39,330 nt of DNA. It comes from a virus (Duplodnaviria; Caudoviricetes). How positions within the stretch are numbered: the first letter of the stretch is position 1; every line of letters begins with the position of its first letter. The stretch lies in IMG/VR virus record IMGVR_UViG_3300043409_001052, positions 1-39,330 of that record; one strand, written 5' to 3'. The position numbers and the translations under genes are program-made. The notes below the pieces were generated by a model. It searched no databases. It saw nothing but the letters and a program-made list of their open reading frames with translations, and was not told the DNA's origin. Below are positions 1 to 38,855 of this stretch, one piece after another.

Positions 1-364
1 ATGGGGTACTCTCCCAAATAGGTCGCAGACGAGTCTGTTGCCAATCTTGCGCGTTCGGGTCATTATCTCGCAGAAGTAATGTCGGTCCTGGGGCGCGGGC
101 TGGAATGAAAGTAGACCATAATTCAAGCAATGATGTTTTCCCACTTTGAACATTTGCGGGGACAACAATTGTTTCGGTTTCTGGATTTTGAAGCTCCCTA
201 AGAATTGGCGCGAGGTAAGGCGTTGACTCAATTCTGAAGGGTCCAGGGTTGGGAGAGTACGGTATATTTTTAACATTGCGTTCAAGCCAAGTAACCATGT
301 CCCCGTCTGGGTCTGGTGCAAGCACAGACCTTAGGACATCTTCAAAATCTTTCTCAACGCTCAT
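1..364 (-). CDS. terL: Terminase large subunit, 5' part (duplicate, cut by window edge)
   Basis: Same reading frame as 38492-38855; only synonymous differences. Confidence 0.9.
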   Translation of the reverse strand, partial: MSVEKDFEDVLRSVLAPDPDGDMVTWLERNVKNIPYSPNPGPFRIESTPYLAPILRELQNPETETIVVPANVQSGKTSLLELWSTFIPARAPGPTLLLRDNDPNAQDWQQTRLRPIWESTP

Positions 365-839
365 CAGTGTTGGTTAAGCCGTCCTTGGCATCTTCTGTCA
401 TGGATGACAGTCGGCCTAATAGGGAATTCACTTCGTCCTCGATGGCTTTCATTGCTGTACCAGGATGGTCTGGATTAGCTTTGGTAGCCATACGCTGACC
501 CATTTGAGTTAGTTCGTTTCTTACGGTTACTAAAATCTTACTAAAAATAGAAATAGCTGTTTGTGTCTCAATGTACTTCTTTGCGGCAATATCACGTGAT
601 TGCTTTTCGCGTTCAAGGGCAACCAATGTTTTAACAAGCTTGTCGTACGTAGCGTATGACTTGGCCTGTTGGTTTGAGCGCTCTGCCAAGTCGTCTTCGT
701 ACTGCCTGTAAGCTAGTGCTTTTAACTGCCTGTGTTTATTTACAATTTCCGCAAAGGTAGAGTCATCGACTGTTTCGGTTTCCACGACTGAGCTTTCAAA
801 GGCATCCGCGCCTCTTGCAGCCCGCCTTGAATTGTACCA
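1..839. repeat. Terminal overlap, copy 1
   Basis: Ungapped match to 38492-39330 with 22 substitutions (hand alignment). Confidence 0.97.
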
Positions 840-950
840 TGCCTCTGCTGACTCAATTGAATCTAGGGGCATACCTTGGTTTACAAACTTGTTAATAGCC
901 TGTCGAGACAGTCCAAGGTGTTCCGCAATCTCAATAGGTCTAATGCTCAT
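354..950 (-). CDS. terS: Terminase small subunit (Nu1-like)
   Basis: N-terminal HTH (EIAEHLGLSRQAINKFVNQGMP), coiled-coil body, overlaps the start of GpA-type terL. Confidence 0.85.
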   Translation of the reverse strand: MSIRPIEIAEHLGLSRQAINKFVNQGMPLDSIESAEAWYNSRRAARGADAFESSVVETETVDDSTFAEIVNKHRQLKALAYRQYEDDLAERSNQQAKSYATYDKLVKTLVALEREKQSRDIAAKKYIETQTAISIFSKILVTVRNELTQMGQRMATKANPDHPGTAMKAIEDEVNSLLGRLSSMTEDAKDGLTNTDER

Positions 951-1474
951 TTTTCAAATCTGTTACCGTTAAAACAATTACGCGGTAGGTTAAGGCGTTT
1001 CTGAATGCTACGTACTCGCCATGATACGTTAGCCTTGGGCAGATTGTATTTCTTGCAGATATCCTTTTGCGATTTGCACGATGGCATTCCAATGGCCAGC
1101 TTCATGCAGTCTACATGGATCTTAACCTGCTTATCCCTGGAGCAGTCAAATGCGCTAATGACCTGTGCTGCGATGTAAACGGCAAACCCCATCTCTGGTT
1201 CGCTTTCAACTTCTATCTGACTCTCTATGTGTTTACGAATTAAATCCTTTTTAGTAATGCGCTGAAAGTACGACTCGTTCCATTTTGAATATTCTGAATC
1301 TTTTCCACCGCGGGTATCAATGCCACGATGTACCATTGGTAAGTTATTTGGAAACGGACTGTATTCACCAATGTCAAAGCCAGCGTCGATGAGCTTTTGG
1401 ATGTCATCCTTTTTCATGGACACGATCCACTTGTCCCATTCCTGTTTTAATCTGGTCTGTTTATTAGTTGCCAC
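947..1474 (-). CDS. Putative transcription regulator with C-terminal sigma-region-4-like HTH
   Basis: C-terminal SQKDICKKYNLPKANVSWRVRSIQKRL resembles a sigma r4/HTH; GTG start; ATGA overlap with terS. Confidence 0.5.
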   Translation of the reverse strand: MATNKQTRLKQEWDKWIVSMKKDDIQKLIDAGFDIGEYSPFPNNLPMVHRGIDTRGGKDSEYSKWNESYFQRITKKDLIRKHIESQIEVESEPEMGFAVYIAAQVISAFDCSRDKQVKIHVDCMKLAIGMPSCKSQKDICKKYNLPKANVSWRVRSIQKRLNLPRNCFNGNRFEK

Positions 1475-1506
1475 TGGTATTAGGTATTAGCCGTATTATA
1501 CCATAG

Positions 1507-1827
1507 TCAAGCTAAAAACTCATACATACCGTTAATATGCTTTTTAATGACGTTTTGCCTTATAGCGAACCTGCACCAGTTCCAGGCTTGCTGGTTGGTC
1601 AGTTCCTCGTTGTAGACGTCCCGCCAAGCTTCAGCGATATGATCGCGCATGACGCAGGGTGGTAGCTGCTTTTTTGGCATTAGGTTCTGGATGCCGCGGA
1701 ACTGCCTAACCTTCTCGTCGACCTTCTGGAGCTGTTGGGCATTCAGCATGTCTAGGTTGGCTCGCTGGCGCTCTGGGTAGCGTTTCCAGATGTCGGCCCA
1801 GTAGCCTGGCTTGCGTTTGTGTTTCAT
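1507..1827 (-). CDS. Hypothetical basic protein (start MKHKRK at 1827)
   Basis: Clean ORF co-oriented with terS; A/C-rich leader before the ATG at 1827. Confidence 0.65.
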   Translation of the reverse strand: MKHKRKPGYWADIWKRYPERQRANLDMLNAQQLQKVDEKVRQFRGIQNLMPKKQLPPCVMRDHIAEAWRDVYNEELTNQQAWNWCRFAIRQNVIKKHINGMYEFLA

Positions 1828-1929
1828 GTTTGGTTTTGGTTGGGGGGTGAGGGGGGCGAAAAGGGATGCTCCCATAGGGCGCGCCGCCGTAGGCAGGCGT
1901 TAGCCCTAATGGGATTGCGTTTAGCAATT

Positions 1930-2079
1930 CCCTTTCATTTTATTTTTATAGGGTTTATCCCTATAATAAAATGAGGGTTTGGCGCTACGGCTTGACGTAC
2001 GGTTTGTTAACATAACAACCCGTATGGTAACCCGTATGAGACGGTGCAAGCCCAAAATGCAAAAAAGTGGGTTTTTTGC
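1930..2079. other. Palindrome/direct-repeat cluster, candidate packaging (cos/pac) region
   Basis: Imperfect inverted repeat 1930-1977 (TCATTTTAT..TATAGGG/CCCTATA ATAAAATGA), AACCCGTATG twice at 2017-2038, GCAAAAAA-N5-TTTTTTGC at 2059-2079; noncoding, upstream of the terS operon. Confidence 0.35.
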
Positions 2080-2439
2080 GGTTTACACACAAGAAACTTA
2101 CGAGGTGCCTCGCCGTTGGCTCCCTCCGTGGGGGGGGTGGGAATAGATTTCTTCGTGGGGTAGGTAGGCAGGGACGGCGGGTGCGCGGCTGTCAGGCCGC
2201 TGTCAAATCTCGTCATTTTGGCCTGTTTTCTCGTTTTGTCGCTCGTTTTCTGCGCGCGCAAGCGCTCGGCGCGCTCGGCAAGCGCTCCGTGATCGCCGAC
2301 AAGCGGCGCGGATCGGGTCAGGCGCGGCGGGTGGATCGTTCCGCGCGCGTCAATTTCGTGATCAATCGCGCGCCGATCGGGTGGCTGGCGCGGGCTGGTG
2401 ACGGCTTCGCCGCGCGCTCGGATCGTGGCAAGCGGGCGC

Positions 2440-2472
2440 AAGAAAGCCCCTCAGCGTGGCGCTGAGAGGCTC
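2440..2472 (-). terminator. Intrinsic terminator ending the high-GC operon
   Basis: Minus strand AGCCTCTCAGCG-CCA-CGCTGAGGGGCT hairpin running into TTTCTT, about 70 nt after the last ORF. Confidence 0.7.
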
Positions 2473-2542
2473 TTGACCGTCTCTCCCCGCCCTACCCCCT
2501 GCCCTGTGTAGGGCGCGGGGCGTGGCGGGGCTGTGGCGTGGT

Positions 2543-2830
2543 TCAGGTGCGGTAGCCAAGCGCCTCGGATCGCCGCTTGCCTTCGTCCACGATCAGGCGG
2601 GCAAGCGCTAAGAGGTCTTTGGAAGTCTCGAGCGCCTTGACGATCCCCTCCTTGTTCGGTGGATCTTCTTGGCCGTTGCGCGTGGCCTCAAGGATCGCGG
2701 CGGCGATCTTCTCGCGCCATTGATCGCGATCCTGTGGCGGTCTGTTCGCGTGATCGGCAAAAAGCGCGGTCAGGTATTCCGCGAGAGTGTCGGACGGTGG
2801 GGGCATTTTTATTTTTTTAGGTTTGGGCAT
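2543..2830 (-). CDS. Hypothetical protein
   Basis: Tiles with neighbours; helical; leader CCCACCCTATG. Confidence 0.7.
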   Translation of the reverse strand: MPKPKKIKMPPPSDTLAEYLTALFADHANRPPQDRDQWREKIAAAILEATRNGQEDPPNKEGIVKALETSKDLLALARLIVDEGKRRSEALGYRT

Positions 2831-2840
2831 AGGGTGGGGA

Positions 2841-3041
2841 TTATTTCCAGCGGTTGGTTGCGTTGGCGGCGCGTAGGAAAGCGCGCGCGCGGTTCAACTT
2901 GCGCGCGCACTCGGTGAGGTCGCACGATTGGAGCGCGGCAAGCGCAAGGGTCAGGCATCGGCCGACCTCCTTGATCAATTGCTCGGTGGTCATCGGCTCG
3001 CCTTCGGGCGCGCCTTCATTGGGTGGTTGTGGTGTAGCCAT
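2841..3041 (-). CDS. Hypothetical protein
   Basis: Fills the gap between co-oriented ORFs; leader CCTTTCCCAATG like neighbours. Confidence 0.6.
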   Translation of the reverse strand: MATPQPPNEGAPEGEPMTTEQLIKEVGRCLTLALAALQSCDLTECARKLNRARAFLRAANATNRWK

Positions 3042-3050
3042 TGGGAAAGG

Positions 3051-4055
3051 TCAGGCGGCGAATGAGACAGTAAAGCCAAGCGCGCCGAGTTGTCGGGCGA
3101 TCTCTTTGCGGGCGCTGTCGGGCGTCTCAAAAGCGCTTTCGCCGTTTTCTGCGTCTGATAGTTTTGGGAGTTCGTAGGATCCAACAGGGTTAAGATCCTT
3201 TCGGTGATCACTGCGCGGGTTTCCGTATCCGCGCCGCAACTCGTCAACGGTGACGGGATCGGTCAGATCGCCGATCGACTCAATGGCGGCAAAGTGGATG
3301 CGCCGAAAGGTTGCGGGGTGCGCGAGGGATACGGCCAGACGGTCAAGGCTCAGGGCGGCGCCCGCTTCCTTCACTAAGTGTCTGATCACCGTTTGCTGGT
3401 TTTCGCCTTTGTGCGTGTCGTGGTGGACGCTGTGAGTCTCTACCTCTACGCTGTGGCCGCCGTTTTCTAAGGCATCGATCACGGAGGCGATCGCGGCGCC
3501 GCGATTGCATAGCGCCTTGGCGCTTACGCCGCACGATGCCGACAATGGCACGATCAATCTGACGATCTTTGACTTTCCACCTGTTAGATCTTCCGCGTCT
3601 GTCTCAAAGTGGCAGGGATCGCCCGCAATGAATGAAGGGGTGCAAAGTGTGCCGCCCGATACATCAAAGTCAGGCGGCGGCGTCAGGACAAAGTCGCCCG
3701 CAAGTGAGGCAAGCGCGTTGCCCATTTTCTTTCGACCTTCAGGCCAACCGTTGTTTGCAAGATCAAGCGCGCCCTGCCATCCCGCGCCGAGATCCCAATC
3801 CATTCCCTCCTTGCCTTGGTGCGGCTCGCGACTGCTTGGATCATTCGCAAATTTCGCTTTGGGCTTTCCTGCCTCGCTTGTGATCCATCGGACAAGCGCC
3901 GCGAGTGAGTCGGCGCGGATCTGAACGGACGCGATCAAGTTTTCTTTTTCTTGCGTGTCAGGCTTATAAGCGGGATTTTTGCGGCGCGGGTGGCGCGTGA
4001 GTCGGACGCCTTCGCAAAGGCGCGCCGATGTGTCGGGTGGTGGTGGTGTGTCCAT
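3051..4055 (-). CDS. vWA-like protein (degenerate MIDAS), partner of the MoxR ATPase
   Basis: RLIVPLSASCGVS...RGAAIASVIDALENGGHSVEV strand/helix pattern typical of phage vWA-like proteins downstream of MoxR/CobS ATPases. Confidence 0.65.
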   Translation of the reverse strand: MDTPPPPDTSARLCEGVRLTRHPRRKNPAYKPDTQEKENLIASVQIRADSLAALVRWITSEAGKPKAKFANDPSSREPHQGKEGMDWDLGAGWQGALDLANNGWPEGRKKMGNALASLAGDFVLTPPPDFDVSGGTLCTPSFIAGDPCHFETDAEDLTGGKSKIVRLIVPLSASCGVSAKALCNRGAAIASVIDALENGGHSVEVETHSVHHDTHKGENQQTVIRHLVKEAGAALSLDRLAVSLAHPATFRRIHFAAIESIGDLTDPVTVDELRRGYGNPRSDHRKDLNPVGSYELPKLSDAENGESAFETPDSARKEIARQLGALGFTVSFAA

Positions 4056-4095
4056 TGGTAGATCCTGGGGGTATTGTTCGGTTCCCTGGTTTTGC

Positions 4096-4695
4096 TTAGT
4101 TGCGGGATCCGTCAGGGTTCCAATCGCCGCCGCCGCCGTTGCGCGGGAACGGTGGCAGATCGTCAGGCTTGGGCTTGTCGGTCTTGGGCTTCAACTTGGG
4201 CTTCAACTTGGGCGCTTCTTCGGTATCAGGTGACAGCAAGCGCGCGGCGTCTGCCTTGGCCTCAGGTGTGCGCGGCGTGATCACTCCAGCCTTCAATGCG
4301 TGTTTCTTCTTTAGCCATTTTTGGGCGCGTAGGTGCGGGAGTTCCTTCCCTGAGTTTTCAACGATCTCTTGCGGGTCTGTCAGGTTAAGCGGTTCAAGTT
4401 TCGCGCCTTCCTTGCTAAAGATCTCGTGAACACTCTTTGCAAATGTCTCAAGCGTGGATCCTTCCGTCCCGATCAGGTGGCAAACGATCTCCAAGATCGT
4501 GTTTCCCATTTCGAGATCGTTCAGGTGCGGGGATGAGTCGGGAAGCGCCTTCGCGATCTTCTCATTATTCATCTTTACGGCCATTGCGAGAGCAAGGGCA
4601 AGGGCGAGGCCTTCGCCGTTGTGCTCGATCCATTTAATGAGCGCCTGAGGTGGAACGGCGAAAAGCGCGCCGTCATCGTTTTTGGGTTTTTCCAT
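4096..4695 (-). CDS. Hypothetical protein (start MEKPK at 4695), Pro/Lys-rich tail
   Basis: Lies between the ATPase and vWA genes; ACACCTATG leader; PKLKPKLKPK repeat. Confidence 0.7.
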   Translation of the reverse strand: MEKPKNDDGALFAVPPQALIKWIEHNGEGLALALALAMAVKMNNEKIAKALPDSSPHLNDLEMGNTILEIVCHLIGTEGSTLETFAKSVHEIFSKEGAKLEPLNLTDPQEIVENSGKELPHLRAQKWLKKKHALKAGVITPRTPEAKADAARLLSPDTEEAPKLKPKLKPKTDKPKPDDLPPFPRNGGGGDWNPDGSRN

Positions 4696-4705
4696 AGGTG
4701 TATTA

Positions 4706-5833
4706 TTAGACGGTGAACGGCTGGATCGAGTCAGGCGCGGGCGGCGGTGTTGCCTCGGCGCTTTCCTCCTGTGCGATCTTCGCAAGCGCGGCGGCGTGGG
4801 ATGCCTTCTCGCTTGCCTCCTTTACCTCGCGAAAGTGGGTCAAGGCGTTGGCGGCCTTGTTGAGTCGCGTCCGATCTTCGGCGCTGGCAAATTTCTGGAG
4901 GATCAGGGCGTCAATCATCTCGCGTTTGGTGAACCCTGCCACGATCAGGCGCGCGCCGTTAAGGGCGGCGCGTGGCGATAGGACGCCGCGCAAGCCTTCG
5001 GCGTTCATAGCCTCGCGGTAATCTTGCACGATCCGCGCGAATTCAATGGCGCGATCCTTGTCGGCCTCGGACAGATCCAGCGCGTGGATCAGGCGCTCGG
5101 TCAGGCTTGGATCATAGTCGCAAGTGAAGATCGTAAACCGATCCAGCGTTGCGCCGTCTAATTGGTTGCGGCCGCAATAATCGCGCGTTGCGCCGCCGCC
5201 GTTCGTGTTGGCGCTGGCGATAAATCGAAAATCCTTATGCGCGGTTATGCGCCGATCGGGGAAGTCGCAAAAGCCATTAGATAGCGCCGCATTGACTGAG
5301 AGAAGCGCGGCGGGTGTGCTGGCGTCCACTTCGTCAAACAGGAAAACGCCGCCGTTTTCGAAAGCATCCCTGAACGCCGTCCGCACGATCTGGCCTTGCG
5401 CGTCCGTGTATCCGAGCAACTCGTGCTTTTTATTGACCGCGCCTGAGAAGTGGAACGCAAGGCCGAGCGCGTCCGCAACTTGGCTGGCAAGGGTGGTTTT
5501 ACCCGATCCAGCGGCTCCAATGATCAACGGCGCGACTCCTACGGAAACGGCGCGACATACAGGGTCGAACAGGGGATGACAAATGCGCTCGCCGAGATCT
5601 CGGACGCCGAGGGGGTGGACGATCTCAAGGCGCGCGGGGCGTATCTTGGCGGCTTCCTCTTGCGCGATGCGGCGGATCGTGGCCGTATCGTGGCCGAGAT
5701 CGACAAGGCCACTTAGCGCGTGAAGCGCTTGCGCGGCGATCGTGCGCTTTTCGTCTTTCGACATCCGCGCGAGTTTTGGGGTGATAGACGGCGCGGGTGT
5801 CGCGCTGTCCGTTGTGTTGGGTGTTGGGTTCAT
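4706..5833 (-). CDS. MoxR/CbbQ/CobS-like AAA+ ATPase
   Basis: Walker A GAAGSGKT, Walker B VFLFDE, H..FRFIASANT, Y.GRNQLDGATLDRF, SPRA. Confidence 0.9.
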   Translation of the reverse strand: MNPTPNTTDSATPAPSITPKLARMSKDEKRTIAAQALHALSGLVDLGHDTATIRRIAQEEAAKIRPARLEIVHPLGVRDLGERICHPLFDPVCRAVSVGVAPLIIGAAGSGKTTLASQVADALGLAFHFSGAVNKKHELLGYTDAQGQIVRTAFRDAFENGGVFLFDEVDASTPAALLSVNAALSNGFCDFPDRRITAHKDFRFIASANTNGGGATRDYCGRNQLDGATLDRFTIFTCDYDPSLTERLIHALDLSEADKDRAIEFARIVQDYREAMNAEGLRGVLSPRAALNGARLIVAGFTKREMIDALILQKFASAEDRTRLNKAANALTHFREVKEASEKASHAAALAKIAQEESAEATPPPAPDSIQPFTV

Positions 5834-5847
5834 TGGGTGGGAAAGGT

Positions 5848-6090
5848 TTAGAGGTTAAGAAGTTTAGATTGGATCGCGGCGGCGGCTTGGATCGCCTCCG
5901 AGATCTCGGCAACGGCGGCGCGGCGCTGTTGGGCGCTGGTCAGGCGCATTTGTAAGCGCTCGGCGCTGGTGACGATACCGTCCGCGCGTTCAAGTCGCGT
6001 CTCGGCCTCGGCAAGCGCATTTAAGGCGCGGCGGAGAGTGATCAACAGGTGGCGCGCAAGGCGCTCGGCTTTAACTTGTTCAGTTTCCAT
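5848..6090 (-). CDS. Small helical protein, paralogue of 6094-6378
   Basis: 24/60 identical residues in an ungapped hand alignment. Confidence 0.8.
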   Translation of the reverse strand: METEQVKAERLARHLLITLRRALNALAEAETRLERADGIVTSAERLQMRLTSAQQRRAAVAEISEAIQAAAAIQSKLLNL

Positions 6091-6093
6091 AGG

Positions 6094-6378
6094 TTAAACG
6101 ATCTCGGGGTTAAGTTGCGATGTGATCGATCGGGCGCTTTCGTAGGCGCTTGCAATGTCGGCGGCGGCTCGGGTGCGGGCGCTTTCGGCGCGCGTCCTGA
6201 GTGCAAGGCGCTCGGCGGCGGTGATACAGGCATCCGCGCTTTTCAGATCACGCTCGGCGTTAAACAGGGAGATCATAGCGCGGTTAAGGTCGGACGCGAT
6301 AAAGACGGCGGCAGACTTGGCAAAGTCTCGATCACAGATCAGAGACAGGCGTTGAAGGTGTTCGGCGTTTGTTTCCAT
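6094..6378 (-). CDS. Small helical protein, paralogue of 5848-6090
   Basis: Shared L.RA...L..AE..L..AD...T.AERL..R pattern. Confidence 0.8.
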   Translation of the reverse strand: METNAEHLQRLSLICDRDFAKSAAVFIASDLNRAMISLFNAERDLKSADACITAAERLALRTRAESARTRAAADIASAYESARSITSQLNPEIV

Positions 6379-6390
6379 AGGTGGCAGGTG

Positions 6391-6537
6391 TTAGGCGGCG
6401 AGGATCACGGCGAGCGCGATCAGGGAAGCAAATGCGGCGAGCGCCCAAAGGACGGCGGCGGAGCCTGGTTGCGTTGTGACGGTAGGAAGCGGGCGCGCAA
6501 GGTTGCGCGCGGCGCGGGTGTGTTTGTGTGTGTTCAT
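6391..6537 (-). CDS. 48-aa C-terminally anchored membrane peptide (not in ORF track)
   Basis: MNTHKHTRAARNLARPLPTVTTQPGSAAVLWALAAFASLIALAVILAA; tiles the gap; CTAAACTTCCC leader. Confidence 0.65.
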   Translation of the reverse strand: MNTHKHTRAARNLARPLPTVTTQPGSAAVLWALAAFASLIALAVILAA

Positions 6538-6561
6538 TGTGGGAAGTTTAGGTGATCGGGT

Positions 6562-6816
6562 TCAGGCGTTGCGCGGATCGGGTGCGCCTTGTTCAACGCG
6601 GGTCAGGGACTCCAAGATCTCGGCGGCGGTGCAACCGACAATCCCCGATCGTTGTTCGTAGTTATAACCCGCCGCGAGATCCACGAAGATCATTCTTCCC
6701 TCAGGGTGCCACTCGGTGTGGTAGGACTCCACGCGGTGATCGGCGTCAAGTTTCGCGGACAGTTTCGCGGACAGCGGGCGGCCGTCTTGGGAGAAAGTGC
6801 AAAGTTTAGATTTCAT
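6562..6816 (-). CDS. Hypothetical protein
   Basis: Tiles the operon; CTAAACTTTCCC leader. Confidence 0.7.
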   Translation of the reverse strand: MKSKLCTFSQDGRPLSAKLSAKLDADHRVESYHTEWHPEGRMIFVDLAAGYNYEQRSGIVGCTAAEILESLTRVEQGAPDPRNA

Positions 6817-6843
6817 CTTGGGAAAGTTTAGCGGGTGGAAAGT

Positions 6844-7143
6844 TTAGCGGGTCAGGTTTTCAATGATCTTTTCAAGCGATCCAATGTCTCCGTCACCGTT
6901 GCGCGCCGCTTCAAGTGAGAAGTGGATCGCCTGTGCCGCGTCCGACAGATCGCAAAGGCGCGTCCGCAAGATCCTTTCGTTTTTCTCCTTCACCTCGGCG
7001 GTGAAAGCGGGATCGTTCCGCCACTCCTTAGCGGCTTTAAGATCAACGGAGAGAACTCGCGCGCAAGTTTTCAGGGCGCGAAGATCGTTAGTGAAAAGGC
7101 GCAAGGCGTTGGCGGTGCGCTCGGGTGTTTTGGGTGTGTCCAT
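6844..7143 (-). CDS. Hypothetical helical protein, first gene of the high-GC operon
   Basis: ATG 6 nt downstream of the predicted -10 element. Confidence 0.7.
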   Translation of the reverse strand: MDTPKTPERTANALRLFTNDLRALKTCARVLSVDLKAAKEWRNDPAFTAEVKEKNERILRTRLCDLSDAAQAIHFSLEAARNGDGDIGSLEKIIENLTR

Positions 7144-7149
7144 CCCTTG

Positions 7150-7188
7150 ACCGTAGGGCGCGCGGCCTGTATGTCAAAGTCTTTTTTT
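7150..7188 (-). promoter_or_regulatory. Sigma70-type early promoter, probably giving a leaderless mRNA
   Basis: A7 tract, TTGACA (7177-7172), 16-nt spacer, TACGGT (7155-7150), ATG at 7143. Confidence 0.6.
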
Positions 7189-7210
7189 GGCATACAGGGG
7201 AAAGCGCCGC

Positions 7211-7260
7211 CGCCGTGGATCATCCCGCGCCGTGGATCATCCCGCCGCCGTGATCCACGG
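7211..7260. repeat. GATC-cored 17-bp tandem repeat plus inverted partial copy
   Basis: CGCCGTGGATCATCCCG twice (7211-7244); TGATCCACGG (7251-7260) is the reverse complement of CCGTGGATCA. Confidence 0.9.
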
Positions 7261-7470
7261 TCAAACGGCCTACGCGGTCAGGCCGCCGCATTTACCTTTG
7301 GCGCGTTTGCCTATGTCCTGACATACCCCTACCCCTTCCGAGCGCTTGGCGGGGCATTTGCGCGCGATCCTGAGGGGATCCAGCCGCCCGCGCTGTCAAG
7401 CGCTCGGCGATCGCGCCGCGCGTATCAGGCGCGCGTGTTTCCAAGCGGGCAAGCGCGCGCGTCCTTCTTA

Positions 7471-7718
<248 letters not shown>

Positions 7719-8016
7719 TCTGGCGGCCTGGAGCGCTGTGGCATAATTATCTTACCTTTATTATAACCATTATATCAAAGGATTGTATTCCAGATGAAAT
7801 CTCAGATTTTAGTGCCAGAAATTTTTGAAGGATTTTTATCCTATACATTATGCCATGCCATATGGAACAAGACCCAGGGGGGGGTATGCATAGGGACAAA
7901 TTTGAGTAAAAAAAAAGAAAAAAACAAAGCCACCCATGGGGTGTATTTGATCGGGTCAAAATCCTGTTAAAAAAAAAGAAAGAATAAGGCTGCGGGGTGG
8001 GGCGCAATCTTCTGTC

Positions 8017-8062
8017 AAAAAAATAAAAAAAGATTGACTAAGGGGGTAGGGTGGGGCATTTG
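8017..8062 (+). promoter_or_regulatory. Possible promoter for the replication arm
   Basis: A-rich UP-like tract then TTGACT at 8034-8039; -10 element poor. Confidence 0.3.
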
Positions 8063-8081
8063 TATTGAGACCACCAACACT

Positions 8082-8270
8082 ATGAACCAACAAACCATTA
8101 TGTATTACATCCATAACATCCTCAACGGAACGCGCAAGGTTAGTAGCATGGCAGAGGCCGTGCAGATCCTTGAAGCCGTTGAGTTCAACTCTGAGAAGTA
8201 TTTGATTACTCATCAGAACTACGAAGTATATACGGCCATCAAAAACTACGTAGAGGGTGGCAACAAATGA
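8082..8270 (+). CDS. Hypothetical protein (start MNQQ at 8082)
   Basis: First ORF of the plus arm; ATGA overlap with the ligase. Confidence 0.65.
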   Translation: MNQQTIMYYIHNILNGTRKVSSMAEAVQILEAVEFNSEKYLITHQNYEVYTAIKNYVEGGNK

Positions 8271-9124
8271 TTATCGCCGATACATTTATGCCACATGGAT
8301 ATAAGCCGATGCTGTGCAACGAATACGATGGGCGCGATTTGAAAGGTTACGTTGCAGAGCCTAAGTATGACGGAATACGTTGCGTTGCCATACATGATTG
8401 CATCAATCGAACCACACGTCTTTTAACTAGGTCTGGTAACATCATCTATTCTTGCGCTCATATTGAAGCCGCAATCAACAATTCAACTGGCCTTCCAAAT
8501 CATGGCATCATAGTACTTGATGGAGAGCTATGGACTCCCACGTTGTCATTTGATGAGATTAACGGAGCGGTCAGAGCCATAATGCACAGCCCTTATTCAG
8601 CAGAGATTGGTCTACGCGTGTTTGATATGGTCCATTGGATTAACGGAGCGTGGAATAATAAAGACACTTACATTCGTAGGAAATATTTACTGTCAAAAAG
8701 CATTGTTGATACATCCACGTTGTCGGTTGTTGGCAGCGAACCTGCGGATGGGGCGTACGAACGAGCCGTAGCCAATGGATACGAGGGGGTTATTTATAAA
8801 CGAGCCAATTCAAAGTACAAGTTTGGGCGCACAATTGATTGGATGAAGCGAAAGCCAGTCATGACAGACACATTTGTTGTCGAGTTTTTCACGGAGGGTG
8901 ATGGAAAATTTAAGGATTCACTTGGAACTATTAACTGCTCGCATTGCGGTTCGCTCAATATAAACAAAGGCATTCATTTAGTAGGCACAGGATTTGACGA
9001 CGCAACGAGGCAAGAGTTATGGAACAATCGGAACAACTTAATCGGACAAAAGATTGAGGTTGCTTTCCAGTCAATTACCGAGGATGGTCGGCTAAGATTT
9101 CCTTCATTCAAACGCTTTATCTAA
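8267..9124 (+). CDS. Minimal ATP-dependent DNA ligase
   Basis: EPKYDGIRC, VLDGEL, VFDM, EGVIYK, WMKRKP, VGTGF, LRFPSF motifs. Confidence 0.95.
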   Translation: MIIADTFMPHGYKPMLCNEYDGRDLKGYVAEPKYDGIRCVAIHDCINRTTRLLTRSGNIIYSCAHIEAAINNSTGLPNHGIIVLDGELWTPTLSFDEINGAVRAIMHSPYSAEIGLRVFDMVHWINGAWNNKDTYIRRKYLLSKSIVDTSTLSVVGSEPADGAYERAVANGYEGVIYKRANSKYKFGRTIDWMKRKPVMTDTFVVEFFTEGDGKFKDSLGTINCSHCGSLNINKGIHLVGTGFDDATRQELWNNRNNLIGQKIEVAFQSITEDGRLRFPSFKRFI

Positions 9125-9128
9125 CACC

Positions 9129-9584
9129 ATGACCGACCTATCTTTATATCTATCTGCCGCCGCTATTGCCGCACTACCCCTTAACATGACTACTAAAGAA
9201 GCCGCTGACTGGAAGTTCCTCAAAGCCGTTGCACTCGTTGAATCGGGTGACAAGTACAATACCATCGGCGACGGTGGACGAGCATTGGGCAAGTATCAGA
9301 TGCACGTCAGCGCATGGGTTGATGGCAACACTTGGCTTAAGGCCAATGGTCGTAAGACATGGACTCGTAGCTCCTGGCTTAACCCTAAGGCACAAGACCA
9401 AGTTGCCTACGGATTTTTACAAGCAACCAAGGAACGTTTAATCAGAGGTGGCCATGAGGCTGATCCAATTACTATTTATCTTGTATACTCAATGGGCTAC
9501 CAAGGATGGAAGGACGCTGGGAGAATGATACCTGTTGACAAAGCCGATGGGGCTGTCAGAGTTGCCAACCTATTCGCACAATGA
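9129..9584 (+). CDS. Lysozyme-like / lytic transglycosylase fold protein
   Basis: AVALVESG...GDGGRALGKYQM catalytic Glu motif; hydrophobic Ala-rich N-terminus. Confidence 0.75.
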   Translation: MTDLSLYLSAAAIAALPLNMTTKEAADWKFLKAVALVESGDKYNTIGDGGRALGKYQMHVSAWVDGNTWLKANGRKTWTRSSWLNPKAQDQVAYGFLQATKERLIRGGHEADPITIYLVYSMGYQGWKDAGRMIPVDKADGAVRVANLFAQ

Positions 9585-10078
9585 GCGCCTTAAATGTAAA
9601 CAACGTTGGCCATGATGAGTGGTTAACCCCTAAGTATATAACTGATGCGCTTGGGCCTTTTGATTTAGATCCATGTTCCCCAATCAATAGACCATGGTCC
9701 ACTGCCAGCACTCATTTAACTATTTTAGATGACGGACTGGCAACACCATGGAATGATGGAGTTGTTTGGATGAATCCTCCATATGGACGTGAGACTCCTA
9801 AATGGATTCGCAAGATGAGAGAACACAACAACGGTATAGCTCTTATTTTTGCACGAACAGATACAAAGATGTGGTTTGATGATGTGTTTCCTCATGCTAG
9901 GTCATTGCTGTTTATCCAAAAGAGAATTAAGTTTTTCAATGTTGATGGAACGGAAGCACCGTCATCTGGTGGCGCACCAAGTGTTATTGTTGCTTACGGA
10001 GACGAGGCAAATGCTCGTTTGATTTCAGCATCAATTTCCAAAAGCATTAAAGGTCAATTTATCCCATTAAACAAATGA
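9581..10078 (+). CDS. Phage Dam-family N6-adenine DNA methyltransferase
   Basis: DEWLTP, FDLDPCS, VWMNPPYG, FARTDT.WF, RIKF motifs. Confidence 0.9.
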   Translation: MSALNVNNVGHDEWLTPKYITDALGPFDLDPCSPINRPWSTASTHLTILDDGLATPWNDGVVWMNPPYGRETPKWIRKMREHNNGIALIFARTDTKMWFDDVFPHARSLLFIQKRIKFFNVDGTEAPSSGGAPSVIVAYGDEANARLISASISKSIKGQFIPLNK

Positions 10079-10284
10079 GTTCTTACACTACACCAGTTTT
10101 TGCACCAGTTGTTGTTCCTATTCCAACGGACAATGGTTCTTGGAAAGTACACGCAAAACATTGTCCAGAATGTCGTTTAATTTATGAAGAAGAAACAAAA
10201 CTACAAAATCAGATTTTTGCCATTGCGTTTGTGTTGGTAGTTGCTGGTTTTATTTTTCTTTACTTTAAAACAAAAGATTTATGA
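10075..10284 (+). CDS. Small membrane protein
   Basis: C-terminal TM segment; HCPEC motif; ATGA overlaps on both sides. Confidence 0.65.
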   Translation: MSSYTTPVFAPVVVPIPTDNGSWKVHAKHCPECRLIYEEETKLQNQIFAIAFVLVVAGFIFLYFKTKDL

Positions 10285-10730
10285 GTTCCTACATCTCTAT
10301 CGACCCTGGTGCTAAAGGGGCAATCGCTTGCTTCTCTTGTACTGCTCCAGAAGGCGTGAGCATCATGTCGCTATCAGACCCTCCTCAGTTGTCAGACTTT
10401 GCAGAGTTTAGCCCTACCCATTACACGGCAATCATCGAGGAGATTCCAATGGGAGGATGGGGTCCTATACCACAGTCGACAGTTGCCAAGCTTCACCAAG
10501 GCTATGGCCGTATCCTAGGTATTCTAGAGGTACGCGGCTTCCGTATCATACGCGTCCGTCCGCAAGAATGGCAGAAGACTATCGGCGCTGGCAAGAAGCG
10601 CGATCACGGTAAGGACTGGAAGAAACACTTGGCCCAAATTGCCAAAGACAGGTTCCCCACCGTAGAGTTCAAGCAAGAACAAGCCGACGCTCTCTTGCTG
10701 CTTGACCACGCCAGACAACTTAACCTATAA
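10281..10730 (+). CDS. RuvC-like Holliday junction resolvase
   Basis: ISIDPG..GAIA, IIEE, VRPQEWQK, ADALLL. Confidence 0.85.
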   Translation: MSSYISIDPGAKGAIACFSCTAPEGVSIMSLSDPPQLSDFAEFSPTHYTAIIEEIPMGGWGPIPQSTVAKLHQGYGRILGILEVRGFRIIRVRPQEWQKTIGAGKKRDHGKDWKKHLAQIAKDRFPTVEFKQEQADALLLLDHARQLNL

Positions 10731-10737
10731 TACAACC

Positions 10738-10881
10738 ATGAATTACAAAACATTAGAAAACGTTAAAACTTACATCGAAATGATGGAGCAAGAAGAATAC
10801 AAAGCAGGTCACTATAAGCTTGCTGCTGATCTTCGTAGGCTTCTTAATCTCCTTGAAGAAACCAAACCAACTAACAAATAA
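10738..10881 (+). CDS. 47-aa hypothetical protein (not in ORF track)
   Basis: MNYKTLENVKTYIEMMEQEEYKAGHYKLAADLRRLLNLLEETKPTNK; leader TAATACAACC identical to that of the next gene. Confidence 0.65.
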   Translation: MNYKTLENVKTYIEMMEQEEYKAGHYKLAADLRRLLNLLEETKPTNK

Positions 10882-10888
10882 TACAACC

Positions 10889-11080
10889 ATGAACGAACAA
10901 AACGACGTACAACAAAAACTCGACGCTCTCATGTCTGACGAGAGTCTATCAAAAACTGATCGGCAAATTATTCTTGCTGCTCTGCTTTTGAATGATGCTA
11001 TCAACGACATGATTGCAGACAAGAAACCCGACAAACAAGTAAGCGACTTCTGGAACAGTAGCCGCTTCATGCAAAACTAA
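10889..11080 (+). CDS. Hypothetical protein (start MNEQ at 10889)
   Basis: Leader TAATACAACCATG. Confidence 0.65.
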   Translation: MNEQNDVQQKLDALMSDESLSKTDRQIILAALLLNDAINDMIADKKPDKQVSDFWNSSRFMQN

Positions 11081-11101
11081 TAACAACTAACGCCACCCAA
11101 T

Positions 11102-11521
11102 ATGAAACTTAATAATGAATCAAGAACCACCAGAGGACTACCAGGAACTCCATCAGAGAGTCCAGTCAGCCCTAGCCCATCCATGCATCGGAGAGTCCGA
11201 CAAGCGGGACCTTCGATACCTGTACGGATCAATGCTAATGATGGCGGCGGCCGTAAAGCTGTTGTTGGACGACGTGGGCGCGTAAAAGGATACAAGCGTC
11301 CACCGCTTAAACTGATCCCTTACTTCCCTTCGCGTAAGTTAATCCAGCGCATCGGTACTACTCGCTACGTCATCTCAGAAGACGGCACGGTTTATTCCAT
11401 GCTCAAGCCGACGATCACTGGCTGGAAAGTTAAGAAGAAAAGTTACAACATTGTTGTTGACGGCGTGATTCGCCGCTATACACAAGAGGAAATCAATAAC
11501 CTCTTAACGCTATCCAAATGA
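11102..11521 (+). CDS. Hypothetical basic protein with NUMOD4-like segment
   Basis: RYVISEDGTVYSMLKP; no HNH motif follows. Confidence 0.5.
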   Translation: MKLNNESRTTRGLPGTPSESPVSPSPSMHRRVRQAGPSIPVRINANDGGGRKAVVGRRGRVKGYKRPPLKLIPYFPSRKLIQRIGTTRYVISEDGTVYSMLKPTITGWKVKKKSYNIVVDGVIRRYTQEEINNLLTLSK

Positions 11522-12225
11522 GCAACGAAATCCAACCAGTCCCTCAAGCACTCTCGCTTGAGTTGTATGATAAAATGTCTGACCCGATGGAAGCCATCAA
11601 GACTCTTGGCGCGGCTATCTTTAAGTCTGGTATGTTTGGATGCACCAAGACGGAACAAGGCGAAGTGTTGGCCATGCAGTGTTTGGCTGAGCGCAAGCCG
11701 CCTCTTGAGATTGCTAAGACCTATCACTTCATCAACGGCAAACTGTCTATCAAGTCTGACGCATTGCTTGGTAAGTTCTTAATTGCTGGTGGATCAGTCC
11801 AATGGGGTGAGCGCACGGCTACCAAGGTTGTCGGCACGTTCTCCAAGGGTGGAAGCAGTGTAGTTATTACGGCCACTATGGACGAGTTCATTGCCAACGG
11901 AGTTGCCACTGGCAACAACAAGGAGACATGGCGCAAGTACCCTAGGCAGATGCTTACGGCTCGCGCTATCTCCGAGGGCGTACGCCTGGTTGGTCCAGAC
12001 TGTTGCTTTGGTTTATACACGGCAGAGGAGATGGATCAGAAGGTCACTCGCCGTCCAGGATCTATTATCGACATCGTACCCCCAGGCAAAACCGAGACAG
12101 CCGTAAAGCTTTTGGTCAGCGCTGGTATGCTTGAGGAAGGTCAGCAACTTTCAGACTTGTCAGCACTCGATGAGGAGTCTATCTTAAAGAAGCCACAAGC
12201 TTTCATTGAAGCCATTAACAAATAA
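11518..12225 (+). CDS. RecT/Red-beta-like single-strand annealing protein
   Basis: TWRKYPRQML.ARAIS..VR...PD...GLYTAEEM. Confidence 0.8.
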   Translation: MSNEIQPVPQALSLELYDKMSDPMEAIKTLGAAIFKSGMFGCTKTEQGEVLAMQCLAERKPPLEIAKTYHFINGKLSIKSDALLGKFLIAGGSVQWGERTATKVVGTFSKGGSSVVITATMDEFIANGVATGNNKETWRKYPRQMLTARAISEGVRLVGPDCCFGLYTAEEMDQKVTRRPGSIIDIVPPGKTETAVKLLVSAGMLEEGQQLSDLSALDEESILKKPQAFIEAINK

Positions 12226-12229
12226 TCTT

Positions 12230-12565
12230 ATGTCCCAAATCCTAAAAACACACTACCTATGCTACTCAGCCGTCGGCTCAGTCGCGCAAACAGGTCAAAT
12301 CCTAGAGCGTCTTTCCGACGTTGCTTACCTTGTTGAAGTTAAAACTCAGCACGGTGAGGACGTTAATACGTTCTTCCGCGTGGCTTCGCTTAGCGAGATT
12401 GCATCATGGCGCTTGTACTCCAAGCAGTACCATATGGATAACGCCGTTGAAGAAATCACAGAAGCGTACAACCTTCGCGTTGAAGCCGAGAAGGAAGCCG
12501 CCGACAAAGCCGCTGCCGAAACTGTCAGCGACGAAGCTAACGAAATTAAACCCGACCAGAACTAA
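12230..12565 (+). CDS. Hypothetical protein (start MSQIL at 12230)
   Basis: Tiles between the annealing protein and the exonuclease; acidic tail. Confidence 0.65.
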   Translation: MSQILKTHYLCYSAVGSVAQTGQILERLSDVAYLVEVKTQHGEDVNTFFRVASLSEIASWRLYSKQYHMDNAVEEITEAYNLRVEAEKEAADKAAAETVSDEANEIKPDQN

Positions 12566-12566
12566 T

Positions 12567-13340: not shown

Positions 13341-13360
13341 CCAAATAACCAAACACTACC

Positions 13361-13807
13361 ATGTCGTTTAAGTTCAATCCCAATGCCGCTGAAGAACGCA
13401 AGTTCGTTAGCAAACCAGGCACTTATGATGTCACCGTTCAGTCGGTTGAGTATAAGTATATGCCACCATCCGCTGACTTCTATGCGAAGTTCACGCTGAT
13501 CACCGCCGACGGCGAAGTGACTAGCGCGGACATCTTCTTGAAGCCAGAGCGCAACGGTGAGTACGGCCGTCTCAACCAGTTCGTTGCCTCAACCTCAACC
13601 GATGCAGAAGTCAAAGCGCTTCTCGCGCGCGGTGAGTTTGATGTCGACGAGGAGTTCGTCCGTCTTGTCGCTGACCGTGCTGTTGGTCGCAACCTCAAGG
13701 TTGTGGTCACAGAGCGTGAGTATAATAAGAAAGACGGTAGCAAGGGTGTTGCCTACAACGGCAGCTTCTTCCGCCGACTTGCCTCTGGACCAGTACAACC
13801 GTTCTGA
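13361..13807 (+). CDS. Putative single-stranded DNA-binding protein (DUF669-like)
   Basis: PGTYDVTV N-terminus, beta-rich, ends in PF, located in the recombination module. Confidence 0.6.
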   Translation: MSFKFNPNAAEERKFVSKPGTYDVTVQSVEYKYMPPSADFYAKFTLITADGEVTSADIFLKPERNGEYGRLNQFVASTSTDAEVKALLARGEFDVDEEFVRLVADRAVGRNLKVVVTEREYNKKDGSKGVAYNGSFFRRLASGPVQPF

Positions 13808-13833
13808 TTAAACTGAGCGCCGCCACCTCGCTC

Positions 13834-37004: not shown

Positions 37005-38855
37005 TTATGATGCAGTTTCCTCCTTAGGCTTGTCAACAGTTTTTTCGTCTACGGCTGCATTTTTATTTTTACCTCGTCCAACCAGTTTGGCCATCAGTGC
37101 TGGAAGGATACCCATTACTTCGCAGTCCCACAAGTGATTGGCTCGTTCGCCTACCTGGATCCATATCGGACGGCCCGTTTCAGTGCGCGTACGGTGTTCT
37201 GACTGCATTTGCTTACGATACTCGTCTCCAGCATCTTCTGGGTAAGTATGGTCACCTTTACGGCGCAACCTAGTCAAAGTGTCTTTTAACACCAAGTTGG
37301 AGAATAAATAAAGTCTGCAAGCTTGTTTGCCAACCTGGATTATTTTGGCTGGCGCGTATGGTCGGTAAGCAATCTTGGTGCCGATAGGTGTTTGGATGCG
37401 CCATGGGAACTCTGCATTTCCAGAACCCTTAGTGGCGTTCCAACCAAACATAGCACAGTGACGGTAAACATCATCAACGTTAGGTCCGTCACCAGAGTCC
37501 ACGAATACAAACATATCTGAAACCTTAAGACGCTTCTGTTCGTCGCGTACTTGTTCCCAAGTGTCCAGGTACTGCCATCGGATCAACCGAGATTTACCAT
37601 CTATGCTCCACGAACGAACAACATAGAAAAAACCTTTACGCTGCACGTCAACGGACATAAACCGTGTAGGCAAGAATGTATGCTTGGCTTTCGTAGCTTC
37701 GTCAAACGGCGGGGCAGTGGCTCTGCCATCTACGTTGGCACCTTCTTCCTGCCATTCCTGTTCCATCATGTAACCGCTAGGCAAGATTTCTCCGCCTTCG
37801 TCATCTGGTTCATCACTCCAAGCAATTGCCAATCTCTTTTGCTTAAATTCCCTTCGCTTGGTCTCATCCCCTGTTTCTTCGAAAGCTTGAGCTGCCTCAA
37901 TGCACTCTACGGCAAGGTCACCCCACGACAAGCCCCAAAGCATTGTAAGGGCATTGAAGTGAAACCCTACGCGGCCTTTAGGCGCATTAGGATTAAGCGG
38001 AACGTACTCCGCGTCTTTAATCATTTCAGCACGTACGCTATTACGGTCTAAAAAACGATGGTCACATTTCTTACAAGCATAGGTGGTGTTCTCACGCACC
38101 ATGTCATAGTTCCATTGTCCTTCCTTCTTAGCGCCTTCTGGATACTTTATTTGCGACCATTCGAACGGTTGTCTTTCTGCGCAGTGTGGACACTTAAACA
38201 TCCACTCTCGTCTGTCAGTGGCATTAAATAAAGCTGTGAAATCGTCCCCTTCGTATCCACCTTGAGACACAAACAATGATTTCCCTTGCCAAGTAAATGC
38301 TGTACGTCGTGCCAGAGCTTCGGCGATATGTCCTTTAGGCCAGAGCCAGCACTCGTCGCCTCCAAGGTACCTAATGGAACGACCTTGTAAGTTTTTGACG
38401 TTGTGGGCGCCGAGGACCCAGGTGATGCTTCGTTCGAAGTGGGTTGCTGACCATTTGCTTTTGTCTTGGTTGTTGATCTTCCCGTAGGTTGATGGGGTAC
38501 TCTCCCAAATAGGTCGCAGACGAGTCTGTTGCCAATCTTGCGCGTTCGGGTCATTATCTCGCAGAAGTAATGTCGGTCCTGGGGCGCGGGCTGGAATGAA
38601 AGTAGACCATAGTTCAAGCAATGATGTTTTCCCACTTTGAACATTTGCGGGGACAACGATTGTTTCGGTTTCTGGATTCTGAAGTTCCCTAAGAATTGGC
38701 GCGAGGTAAGGCGTTGACTCAATTCTGAAGGGTCCAGGGTTGGGAGAGTACGGTATATTTTTAACATTGCGTTCAAGCCAAGTAACCATGTCCCCATCTG
38801 GATCTGGTGCAAGCACAGACCTTAGGACATCTTCAAAATCTTTCTCAACGCTCAT
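37005..38855 (-). CDS. terL: Terminase large subunit, lambda GpA family
   Basis: TPYL, VQSGKT, IRYLGGDE, CPHC and CKKC zinc motifs, VDVQ nuclease motif, NHLWDC. Confidence 0.93.
   Translation of the reverse strand: MSVEKDFEDVLRSVLAPDPDGDMVTWLERNVKNIPYSPNPGPFRIESTPYLAPILRELQNPETETIVVPANVQSGKTSLLELWSTFIPARAPGPTLLLRDNDPNAQDWQQTRLRPIWESTPSTYGKINNQDKSKWSATHFERSITWVLGAHNVKNLQGRSIRYLGGDECWLWPKGHIAEALARRTAFTWQGKSLFVSQGGYEGDDFTALFNATDRREWMFKCPHCAERQPFEWSQIKYPEGAKKEGQWNYDMVRENTTYACKKCDHRFLDRNSVRAEMIKDAEYVPLNPNAPKGRVGFHFNALTMLWGLSWGDLAVECIEAAQAFEETGDETKRREFKQKRLAIAWSDEPDDEGGEILPSGYMMEQEWQEEGANVDGRATAPPFDEATKAKHTFLPTRFMSVDVQRKGFFYVVRSWSIDGKSRLIRWQYLDTWEQVRDEQKRLKVSDMFVFVDSGDGPNVDDVYRHCAMFGWNATKGSGNAEFPWRIQTPIGTKIAYRPYAPAKIIQVGKQACRLYLFSNLVLKDTLTRLRRKGDHTYPEDAGDEYRKQMQSEHRTRTETGRPIWIQVGERANHLWDCEVMGILPALMAKLVGRGKNKNAAVDEKTVDKPKEETAS

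What the first reader, a model, noticed from the sequence alone, without database searches (positions are those of the whole stretch)
2291..7412. GATC hyper-density: about one site per 50 bp over 5 kb
Hand count gives about 104 GATC between 2291 and 7412, against about 20 expected at 1 per 256 bp and about 30 in the 12 kb from 8000 to 20000. Sites occur in noncoding DNA (six in 2291-2424) and in different codon phases across ten mostly unrelated genes, so amino-acid content alone is an unlikely cause. GCGC/CGCG runs also look over-represented. Inference: this is DNA-level selection for a dense methylation or protein-binding domain, such as a self-mark, a decoy or a packaging/entry signal. Dam-methylated GATC clusters control pac cleavage in P1, but only over a short stretch.
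Basis: seen in the sequence. Interest (0 to 1): 0.85.

Follow-up and report, generated by a model that had tools for sequence, protein, structure and literature searches.

The report
Methylation-site-loaded end of a phage genome
A 5.3-kb block next to the predicted DNA end of an uncultured phage has lost about ten short restriction-type DNA words yet is packed with four others (GATC among them), and its relatives pack different words into the same block, which likely makes the DNA that probably enters the cell first look like the host's own methylated DNA.

Summary
Confirmed and extended. GATC occurs 104 times in 2291-7412 and takes 90 of 110 synonymous opportunities, against 46 of 436 elsewhere. 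The window is a complete lambda-like (gpA terminase) phage, host probably Verrucomicrobiota. The block (about 2130-7467) runs from a cos-like end motif to a (GCGT)n tract, i.e. the last-packaged, probably first-ejected end. It is purged of about ten palindromes (a known T5-like strategy) but loaded with GATC, GCGC, CGCG and CCTGA. CCTGA is almost absent from the rest of the genome (1 against 59 expected; 40 in the block). 14 of 16 family genomes load some methyltransferase-type palindrome in this slot, with words that switch between loaded and purged by lineage; 0 of 13 prophage-like relatives do. Avoidance alone, a donor genome, an assembly chimera and a P1-type pac signal do not explain it, and the phage's Dam-family gene is not required. 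Best reading (0.45): dense host-type methylation on first-entering DNA as a self-like mark; methylation, entry order and benefit are all untested. This scan noted GATC-rich early blocks in other phages before; my literature searches found only depletion.

The parts
2127..2151 (-). cos-like end motif (conserved GAAATCTATT box, then about 15 nt, then a G-rich run); predicted physical end of the virion DNA
   Evidence: Motif found in 12 of 18 family genomes; 13 of 20 relatives' contigs that start 1.8-2.35 kb upstream of terL begin in the G-rich run; 19 of 46 loci of the adjacent gene start 210-310 bp upstream of it
2130..7467 (.). Loaded block: GATC 104, GCGC 162, CGCG 133, CCTGA/TCAGG 40; GC 60%
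1998..7771 (.). Purged interval: no ACGT, AGCT, CATG, CTAG, GTAC, ATAT, GGNCC, GCWGC or CGWCG
   Evidence: each word is common outside
2543..3041 (-). Two small orphan genes (2543-2806, 2841-3041)
   Evidence: no PHROG, Pfam or PADLOC match
3051..4055 (-). DUF7192 protein (phrog_1909), function unknown
4096..4695 (-). Orphan gene, 199 aa
   Evidence: no informative match
4706..5833 (-). MoxR/CobS-like AAA+ ATPase (phrog_249, PF07728)
5848..7143 (-). Five small orphan genes at the head of the block operon
7207..7252 (.). 17-bp direct repeat, 2.6 copies, each with a GATC
7473..7717 (.). (GCGT)n tract, about 65 copies, at the inner border of the block; candidate entry-pause or boundary element; length uncertain
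   Evidence: relative G002 has a 210-bp GCGC/GTGT repeat at the same border; not bridged by the contigs laid
9581..10078 (+). Phage adenine methyltransferase of family PF05869; accessory, target sequence not determined
   Evidence: present in 1 of 17 and 1 of 5 relatives' records; skipped by a contig of run X4
354..950 (-). Terminase small subunit; orients the block as the right end beyond cos
37005..38855 (-). gpA-type terminase large subunit
   Evidence: PF05876 and PF20454

Best explanation
The block is the genome segment beside a predicted cos end, likely the first DNA to enter the cell; it has shed one set of restriction-type words and has been filled, by silent codon choice, with another set that the host likely methylates, which would make the entering DNA look like self. 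Shown: the loading and purging are DNA-level, sharply bounded, tied to the end motif, and use different words in different lineages. Inferred: right-end-first, slow or two-step entry; block genes then neutralise restriction so that the rest need not be purged; purged words are sites of restriction systems the virion DNA arrives unmethylated for; loaded words are sites that the usual host (helped here perhaps by the phage's own methyltransferase) methylates. Inferred: such sites carry a cost during replication, hence their avoidance elsewhere (CCTGA strongly, GATC mildly), and pay off only at entry, by damping methylation-sensing defences or by blocking overlapping cut sites.
For: Saturation of GATC and opposite codon choice inside and outside the block (Asp is GAT before C in 32 of 38 cases inside, 12 of 59 outside). 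Avoidance-only sampling reaches GATC 33 +/- 4.5 (all absent 5-mers forbidden) or 53 (all rare 5-mers forbidden), not 90. All four loaded words are at zero genome-wide in relative G001, and CCTGA is avoided all-or-none across the family, as enzyme targets are; CCTGA is a documented m6A site of a Type IIG enzyme (PMC4889913, passages). Words switch between loaded and purged by lineage: AGCT, CCGG, CGWCG, CATG, GGCC. Loaded-inside, avoided-outside recurs: CCTGA in G009 (17/9 against 8/54), CGGCCG in G010 (31/2 against 1/13), GAWTC in L455 (18/6 against 2/20), GATC in G441 (28/13 against 48/106). 14 of 16 family genomes against 0 of 13 prophage-like relatives load a palindrome next to the end. Even, unphased spacing fits 'as many as possible'. 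Restriction acting only on first-injected DNA is established for T5 and murciaviruses. DISARM DrmAB is less active on methylated DNA (PMC9142583, passages), and drmB is in 8 of 251 genomes of the likely host class.
Against: No methylation data, and the host is not identified (4-mer correlation with seven sampled genomes only 0.09-0.57), so loaded words could not be matched to host enzymes. The overlap-shield version failed two tests: purged words are not tolerated where they overlap loaded ones (0 GCWGC or CGWCG overlaps with GCGC/CGCG, against 20 and 22 for the GCSGC and CGSCG forms), and only GAAGA leaned towards GATC overlap (9 of 13, not significant over about 80 words). The DISARM preprint reports that unmethylated motifs increase targeting and that protection holds regardless of methylation; it does not show that methylated motifs beat having none. 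Right-end-first ejection is disputed even for lambda (about 50:50 in vitro; PMC10287942, passages). No block gene matches a known anti-restriction family. Why a word useful in the block is held at 1 of 59 elsewhere needs an added cost that is assumed. Several family genomes are close kin, so 14 of 16 is not 14 independent cases, and block limits were set by eye.
Confidence: 0.45

Rival explanations
1. Shut-off tag. A phage early protein binds, silences or nicks DNA that carries the host's methylation words in order to take over the host. The rest of the phage genome avoids the word, and the block is loaded so that the pre-early genes are switched off by the same factor.
For: Explains the loaded-inside, avoided-outside pattern most directly. 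T5 shuts off its pre-early genes by an unknown route (PMC10644984, passages). Two rhizobial phages have no GANTC in the 44 and 50 kb examined, the target of the orphan methylase CcrM (recalled), so being marked can itself be costly.
Against: GCGC and CGCG are not avoided outside the block (o/e 1.44, 1.18). Block genes are not shared between lineages, so no common factor is visible. The block is single-copy (depth 30 against 25), so cutting it would be lethal.
Confidence: 0.15
2. Decoy. Dense sites on the entering DNA soak up a limited pool of restriction or methylation enzymes without being cut, protecting what follows.
For: The loaded words behave like enzyme targets and tend to be under-used elsewhere.
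Against: More unmethylated sites normally mean more cutting; CCTGA occurs in both orientations (33:7), so orientation does not protect it; the block is single-copy. A search for a phage DNA decoy of this kind found nothing relevant.
Confidence: 0.15
3. Biased repair or gene conversion near the right end creates the words without selection (Vsr-like repair, or RecET exchange focused at cos).
For: The phage encodes a RecT-like protein and an exonuclease VIII; the block is GC-richer.
Against: GATC is gained by changes in all three phases, including C-to-T against the GC trend; density is flat and then stops at 7467 instead of decaying from the end; loading also occurs in a 36% GC block (L455) and in one no richer in GC than its genome (G441).
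Confidence: 0.08
4. By-product. Avoiding very many restriction sites squeezes the block into a small safe vocabulary, and GATC is one of the words left.
For: The block uses 467 of 512 5-mers against 505-507 in five other windows; many non-palindromic words are depleted too.
Against: Constrained sampling gives 33-53 GATC, 47-54 GCGC and 50-60 CGCG against 90, 125 and 102 observed. It cannot explain a word avoided elsewhere being favoured here.
Confidence: 0.07
5. Packaging or virion-protein binding field (P1 pac-like methylated signal, termination signal, or coat for an ejected protein).
For: The block abuts the cos-like motif and is packaged last; a word with positional meaning would be avoided elsewhere (CCTGA).
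Against: Several words at once, different in each lineage although terminases are 60-76% identical; no helical phasing; G001 has none of the words and 13 prophage-like relatives have no field.
Confidence: 0.06
6. Foreign DNA from a GATC-rich donor, or an assembly chimera.
For: GC step of 13 points; blocks are swapped wholesale between close relatives (G441 has unrelated block genes).
Against: One contig of run X1 (possibly the source data) spans 627-7467 and runs X2-X4 hold 80-99% identical pieces of the block. Seven sampled candidate-host genomes have GATC o/e of at most 1.56. In run X4, homologous block pieces lack several of the GATCs, so the load changes on the same genes.
Confidence: 0.02

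Closest known systems
First-step-transfer (pre-early) DNA of T5/BF23 (Tequintavirus)
   Same: A bounded terminal block of small early genes free of restriction sites that are tolerated elsewhere, ending at a long non-coding, repeat-bearing border (PMC10644984, passages).
   Different: Here the end is a single-copy cos-type right end, not a 10-kb terminal repeat; no T5 pre-early homologue was found; T5 DNA escapes Dam/Dcm methylation, whereas this block is loaded with methylase-type words.
Early-injected region of T7-like murciaviruses
   Same: Restriction acts on sites in the leading region only (PMC12455610, abstract and Discussion).
   Different: Podovirus with short terminal repeats; only depletion is described.
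Leading region of conjugative plasmids
   Same: First-entering DNA, GC-richer than the rest (PMC13478746, abstract and section 13).
   Different: No systematic change in 4-bp palindromes there; neither total purging nor loading.
P1 pac region with clustered Dam sites (recalled, not checked in a call)
   Same: GATC cluster near the packaging start in a phage with its own Dam-type gene.
   Different: pac/headful and about 160 bp; here cos-type, 5.3 kb, four words, unphased, and GATC is dispensable in relatives.
HIP1 over-representation in cyanobacteria (recalled)
   Same: A methylase-linked word far above chance in all reading frames.
   Different: HIP1 is genome-wide and an octamer; GCGATCGC occurs only twice here and GATC flanks are mixed.

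Membership tests
Restriction-site-free first-injected region (T5 FST-like) | Bounded block at a fixed genome end | tested here: met
   Starts at a cos-like motif where relatives' contigs begin; the end itself is inferred from assemblies
Restriction-site-free first-injected region (T5 FST-like) | Sites absent in the block but tolerated elsewhere | tested here: met
Restriction-site-free first-injected region (T5 FST-like) | Enters first, with a pause before the rest | not testable with these tools
   Inferred from lambda-like layout; polarity disputed for lambda
Restriction-site-free first-injected region (T5 FST-like) | Encodes anti-restriction or host-takeover proteins | tested here: inconclusive
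   Only an AAA+ ATPase and DUF7192 are named; eight orphans
T5 first-step-transfer DNA proper | Lies in a long direct terminal repeat | tested here: not met
   Single copy in a 38,491-bp unit; contig depth 30.4 against 25.4; gpA terminase
Lambda-like cos phage | gpA terminase, lambda-family portal, fixed end upstream of terS | tested here: met
P1-type methylation-controlled pac site | Short GATC cluster at a pac site, headful terminase | tested here: not met
   5.3-kb even field; gpA terminase
P1-type methylation-controlled pac site | Cleavage depends on Dam methylation | not testable with these tools
   No methylation or packaging data
GATC-specific phage Dam (T1-like) | PF05869 domain | tested here: met
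   61 bits, cut-off 28.1
GATC-specific phage Dam (T1-like) | Methylates GATC | not testable with these tools
   No characterised close homologue among the 120 listed and no solved structure

The most novel reading that the evidence does not exclude
A sequence-encoded 'methyl passport': phages write their host's methylation motifs at near-saturation into the first-entering DNA while stripping the same motifs from the rest, to satisfy a missing-self sensor. The loaded and purged word lists of such blocks would then read out, separately, the methylome of an uncultured host and the restriction systems of its neighbours, and would point to a widespread defence that counts methyl marks on incoming DNA ends.
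Probability: 0.35. Interest if true: 0.9.

Novelty: new variant of a known kind. Interest (0 to 1): 0.72.

Why it matters
Phage counter-defence at the sequence level is known as site avoidance. Here the same segment is under strong positive selection for enzyme-type sites, some of which the rest of the genome removes, and this repeats across a family with changing words. If methylation is the cause, it adds a new way to evade immunity (borrowing the host's methylases through codon choice), implies two-step entry in a lambda-like cos phage, and gives a sequence-only clue to host methylomes. The central prediction is easy to test on long-read methylation data from lake viromes.

Tried and rejected
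Close DNA relatives of the block's AAA gene: none in viral contigs, only distant ones with alignments, so conservation of GATC at synonymous positions could be checked only on fragments. In run X4, 2 of 4 GATCs in six tabulated segments were lost and none gained (43 rows out of several hundred); two loose ends show four more lost, but loose ends are divergent by selection and fragments may come from different genomes. Phage-encoded methylase as the general cause: rejected; PF05869 in 1 of 17, PF00145 in 2 of 18, PF01555 in 1 of 18 (below cut-off) records; G441 loads GATC 2.2-fold without a PF05869 gene in an 87% complete record. Its load is weaker (22 of 50 opportunities), so a boost by the phage enzyme here is not excluded. 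Overlap shielding: two tests, not supported. Helical phasing: none. Extension to unrelated phages with the same AAA gene: 26 of 80 loci show a loaded palindrome against 4 of 78 control windows, but only 3 of 80 also show two purged words against 1 of 78, and words such as TGSCA and CAWTG recur at this gene in cultured phages, so protein content may inflate it; not counted as support. Four cultured phages (phiM5, Sephiroth, P106B, P8625; two read in part) show no such loaded block. A cos-pattern scan was mostly unrelated hits and was not analysed. Host: first genome scan found nothing. Promoter scan gave 4 hits against 2.1 expected, uninformative. Atlas and PDB searches named nothing new. Literature: ten searches found no paper on loading of methylase sites in first-injected phage DNA; the library lacks most subscription papers, and no supplements were read.
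Full report
OBSERVATION. The count is right: 104 GATC in 2291-7412 and 31 in 8000-20000. In 2201-7480, base composition predicts 18.9 GATC; GCGC (162) and CGCG (133) are also 3-4 times expectation, and GC is 60% against 47% elsewhere. In the ten block genes GATC is 90 against 37.6 +/- 4.1 in 500 synonymous shuffles, fills 90 of 110 synonymous opportunities in all three phases (46 of 436 in 16 other genes), and non-coding block DNA has 14 against 3.0 expected (one search agreed, with three genes clipped by a few codons). Codon choice reverses at the border: Asp is GAT before a C in 32 of 38 cases inside (12 of 52 otherwise) and in 12 of 59 outside. Even the amino-acid order offers more GATC opportunities than shuffled orders (110 against 91 +/- 6). 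Spacing is even and unphased.

The block is also purged: nine palindromes do not occur from 1998 to 7771, though each is common outside. CCGG is absent from the whole genome. A fourth loaded word, CCTGA/TCAGG, occurs 40 times in the block (11 expected) and once in the other 32 kb (59 expected). At codon level it is 34 against about 11 inside and 0 against about 43 outside. The block uses 467 of 512 5-mers against 505-507 elsewhere, but forbidding all absent 5-mers raises expected GATC only to 33, and forbidding all rare ones to 53. Loading is therefore more than a by-product of purging.

WHERE IT LIES. The window is a complete circularly assembled phage of 38,491 bp with a gpA terminase, lambda-family portal, RecT/exonuclease VIII, primase, ligase and a PF05869 methyltransferase; no integrase or tRNA was found. 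A conserved end motif at 2151-2127 lies just upstream of the terS operon (found in 12 of 18 family genomes). 13 of 20 relatives' contigs that start 1.8-2.35 kb upstream of terL begin in its G-rich run, and 19 of 46 loci of the adjacent gene start 210-310 bp upstream of it. I read this as cos; G-run drop-out could contribute. The block is then the right end, packaged last. In lambda the standard model has this end leaving first, though one in vitro study found about 50:50 (PMC10287942, passages). Its inner border is a (GCGT)n tract, matched by a similar repeat at the same place in G002. One contig of run X1, possibly the source data, spans 627-7467 at similar depth, and three other runs hold pieces of the block; the tract itself is not bridged. 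The host is probably Verrucomicrobiota: a 71% identical terL sits in an Opitutia MAG and 38 of 401 genomes of that class match the family profile. The exact host is unknown.

THE FAMILY. I read 17 relatives' records nearly whole plus G441, and compared 16 genomes including the window. With fixed thresholds, 14 of 16 load at least one palindrome in the 3.5 kb beside the end and 9 of 16 also purge two or more, against 0 of 13 prophage-like relatives. Block limits were set by eye and about seven genomes are close kin. The words differ: GCGC/CGCG/AGCT in G002, CCGG/GCSGC/TTAA in the G006 group, CGWCG/ACGT/GGCC in G010, CCWGG in G009. A word loaded in one lineage is purged in another. G001 lacks GATC, GCGC, CGCG, CCTGA, CCGG, AGCT and CATG genome-wide, so all four words loaded here are words a relative avoids totally. 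Loaded-inside, avoided-outside recurs in G009 (CCTGA), G010 (CGGCCG), L455 (GAWTC) and G441 (GATC). Of 50 loci of the inner-border gene given, the more distant ones mostly showed no block. Block genes are not shared between the window, G002 and the larger group, and their direction differs. G441, about 80% identical in neighbouring genes, has an unrelated block and no PF05869 gene in an 87% complete record, yet loads GATC, CCGG and CCWGG. Phage methylases are rare in the family, so the marks, if real, are mostly the host's.

MECHANISM. Purging of first-injected DNA is established for T5 (PMC10644984, passages) and murciaviruses (PMC12455610, abstract and Discussion). I infer the same here: the block enters first and its products protect what follows. 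For the loading I favour (0.45) selection for dense host-type methylation. Sites of the usual host's own methylases arrive methylated, cost something during replication, and pay at entry. If GATC, GCGC and CGCG were all methylated, 37% of 6-bp windows in the block would touch a mark against 6% elsewhere. One route is blocking of overlapping sites, which is real biochemistry (BREX methylation blocks AluI; PMC11842806, passages), but my two tests of it were negative. The other is a methylation-sensing defence. DrmAB of DISARM loads on 5' overhangs and is less active on methylated DNA (PMC9142583, passages), and drmB is in 8 of 251 class genomes. However, the primary preprint shows unmethylated motifs raising targeting and does not show that methylated motifs beat none (10.1101/2021.12.28.474362, part 1 of 4 and passages). 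DISARM is thus a model for the logic, not an identified agent. A shut-off tag (0.15) explains the inverse pattern best but not GCGC/CGCG. A decoy (0.15) has no precedent in my searches. Biased repair (0.08), by-product (0.07), packaging signal (0.06) and donor DNA (0.02) fit worse.

COMPARISON AND NOVELTY. It works like a T5-type first-step region but is not one (no long terminal repeat, cos-type terminase). Plasmid leading regions are GC-rich without such word changes (PMC13478746, abstract and section 13). A survey of site avoidance in phages describes depletion (PMC6286503, passages). CCTGA is a known Type IIG m6A site (PMC4889913, passages). A lake Opitutae genome methylates ACGAG (PMC6329791, passages), and ACGAG and CGAG are purged from several relatives' blocks, though not from this one. 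PMC8594841 (passages) added nothing. Ten searches found no report of site loading in first-injected DNA; subscription papers and supplements were not seen. This scan has noted GATC-rich early blocks in two other phages (unchecked), so the theme is not unique to this genome. Verdict: real, strong, family-wide, a new variant of a known kind with an untested mechanism; interest 0.72.

Noticed in passing
window 1-39330: CCGG is absent from the whole genome (about 100 expected outside the block), as in G001 and G002, while other relatives load it.
   Followed up: partly
G001 (L081, L082): A relative with no GATC, GCGC, CGCG, CCGG, AGCT or CATG anywhere and no loaded block; its contig breaks near the end motif, so a block may be missing or this lineage purges the whole genome instead.
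   Followed up: partly
window 7172-7177 and 7143: A perfect TTGACA on the minus strand about 30 bp upstream of the first block gene suggests a leaderless host-type promoter; the scan did not call it because the -10 box is weak. In this phage the whole block must be inside before it can fire; in other relatives the genes run away from the end.
   Followed up: no
L019 5132-6454 and L438 about 1263-2235: G002's block encodes a beta-clamp-like protein (PF02767); the G441 block gene looks similar by eye. The larger group carries GP88 (PF17338).
   Followed up: no
window 9129-9584: A conserved gene with a lytic-transglycosylase-like GESG..GD motif (weak phrog_5867 match) marks the inner border of the block across the family.
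   Followed up: partly
L556 36501-40000 (Gordonia phage Sephiroth, last 3.5 kb): Only 2 GATC against 12-25 per 3.5 kb upstream, around the same AAA+ gene at the right end: a cultured case of purging.
   Followed up: no
L555, L557: Rhizobial phages phiM5 (whole) and P106B (first 50 of 56 kb) contain no GANTC at all.
   Followed up: no
window 1-839 and 38492-39330: End overlap of 839 bp with 22 mismatches: the assembly mixes two strains in terS.
   Followed up: yes
window 6545-6844 and 8276-9133: Relatives lack the genes at 6562-6816 (run X3) and the ligase (run X4, and L438/L437), showing gene-level turnover at both sides of the border.
   Followed up: no
family structural regions: CACTG/CAGTG is avoided in most family members and is low in several sampled host-class genomes: perhaps a lineage-wide enzyme target.
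   Followed up: no
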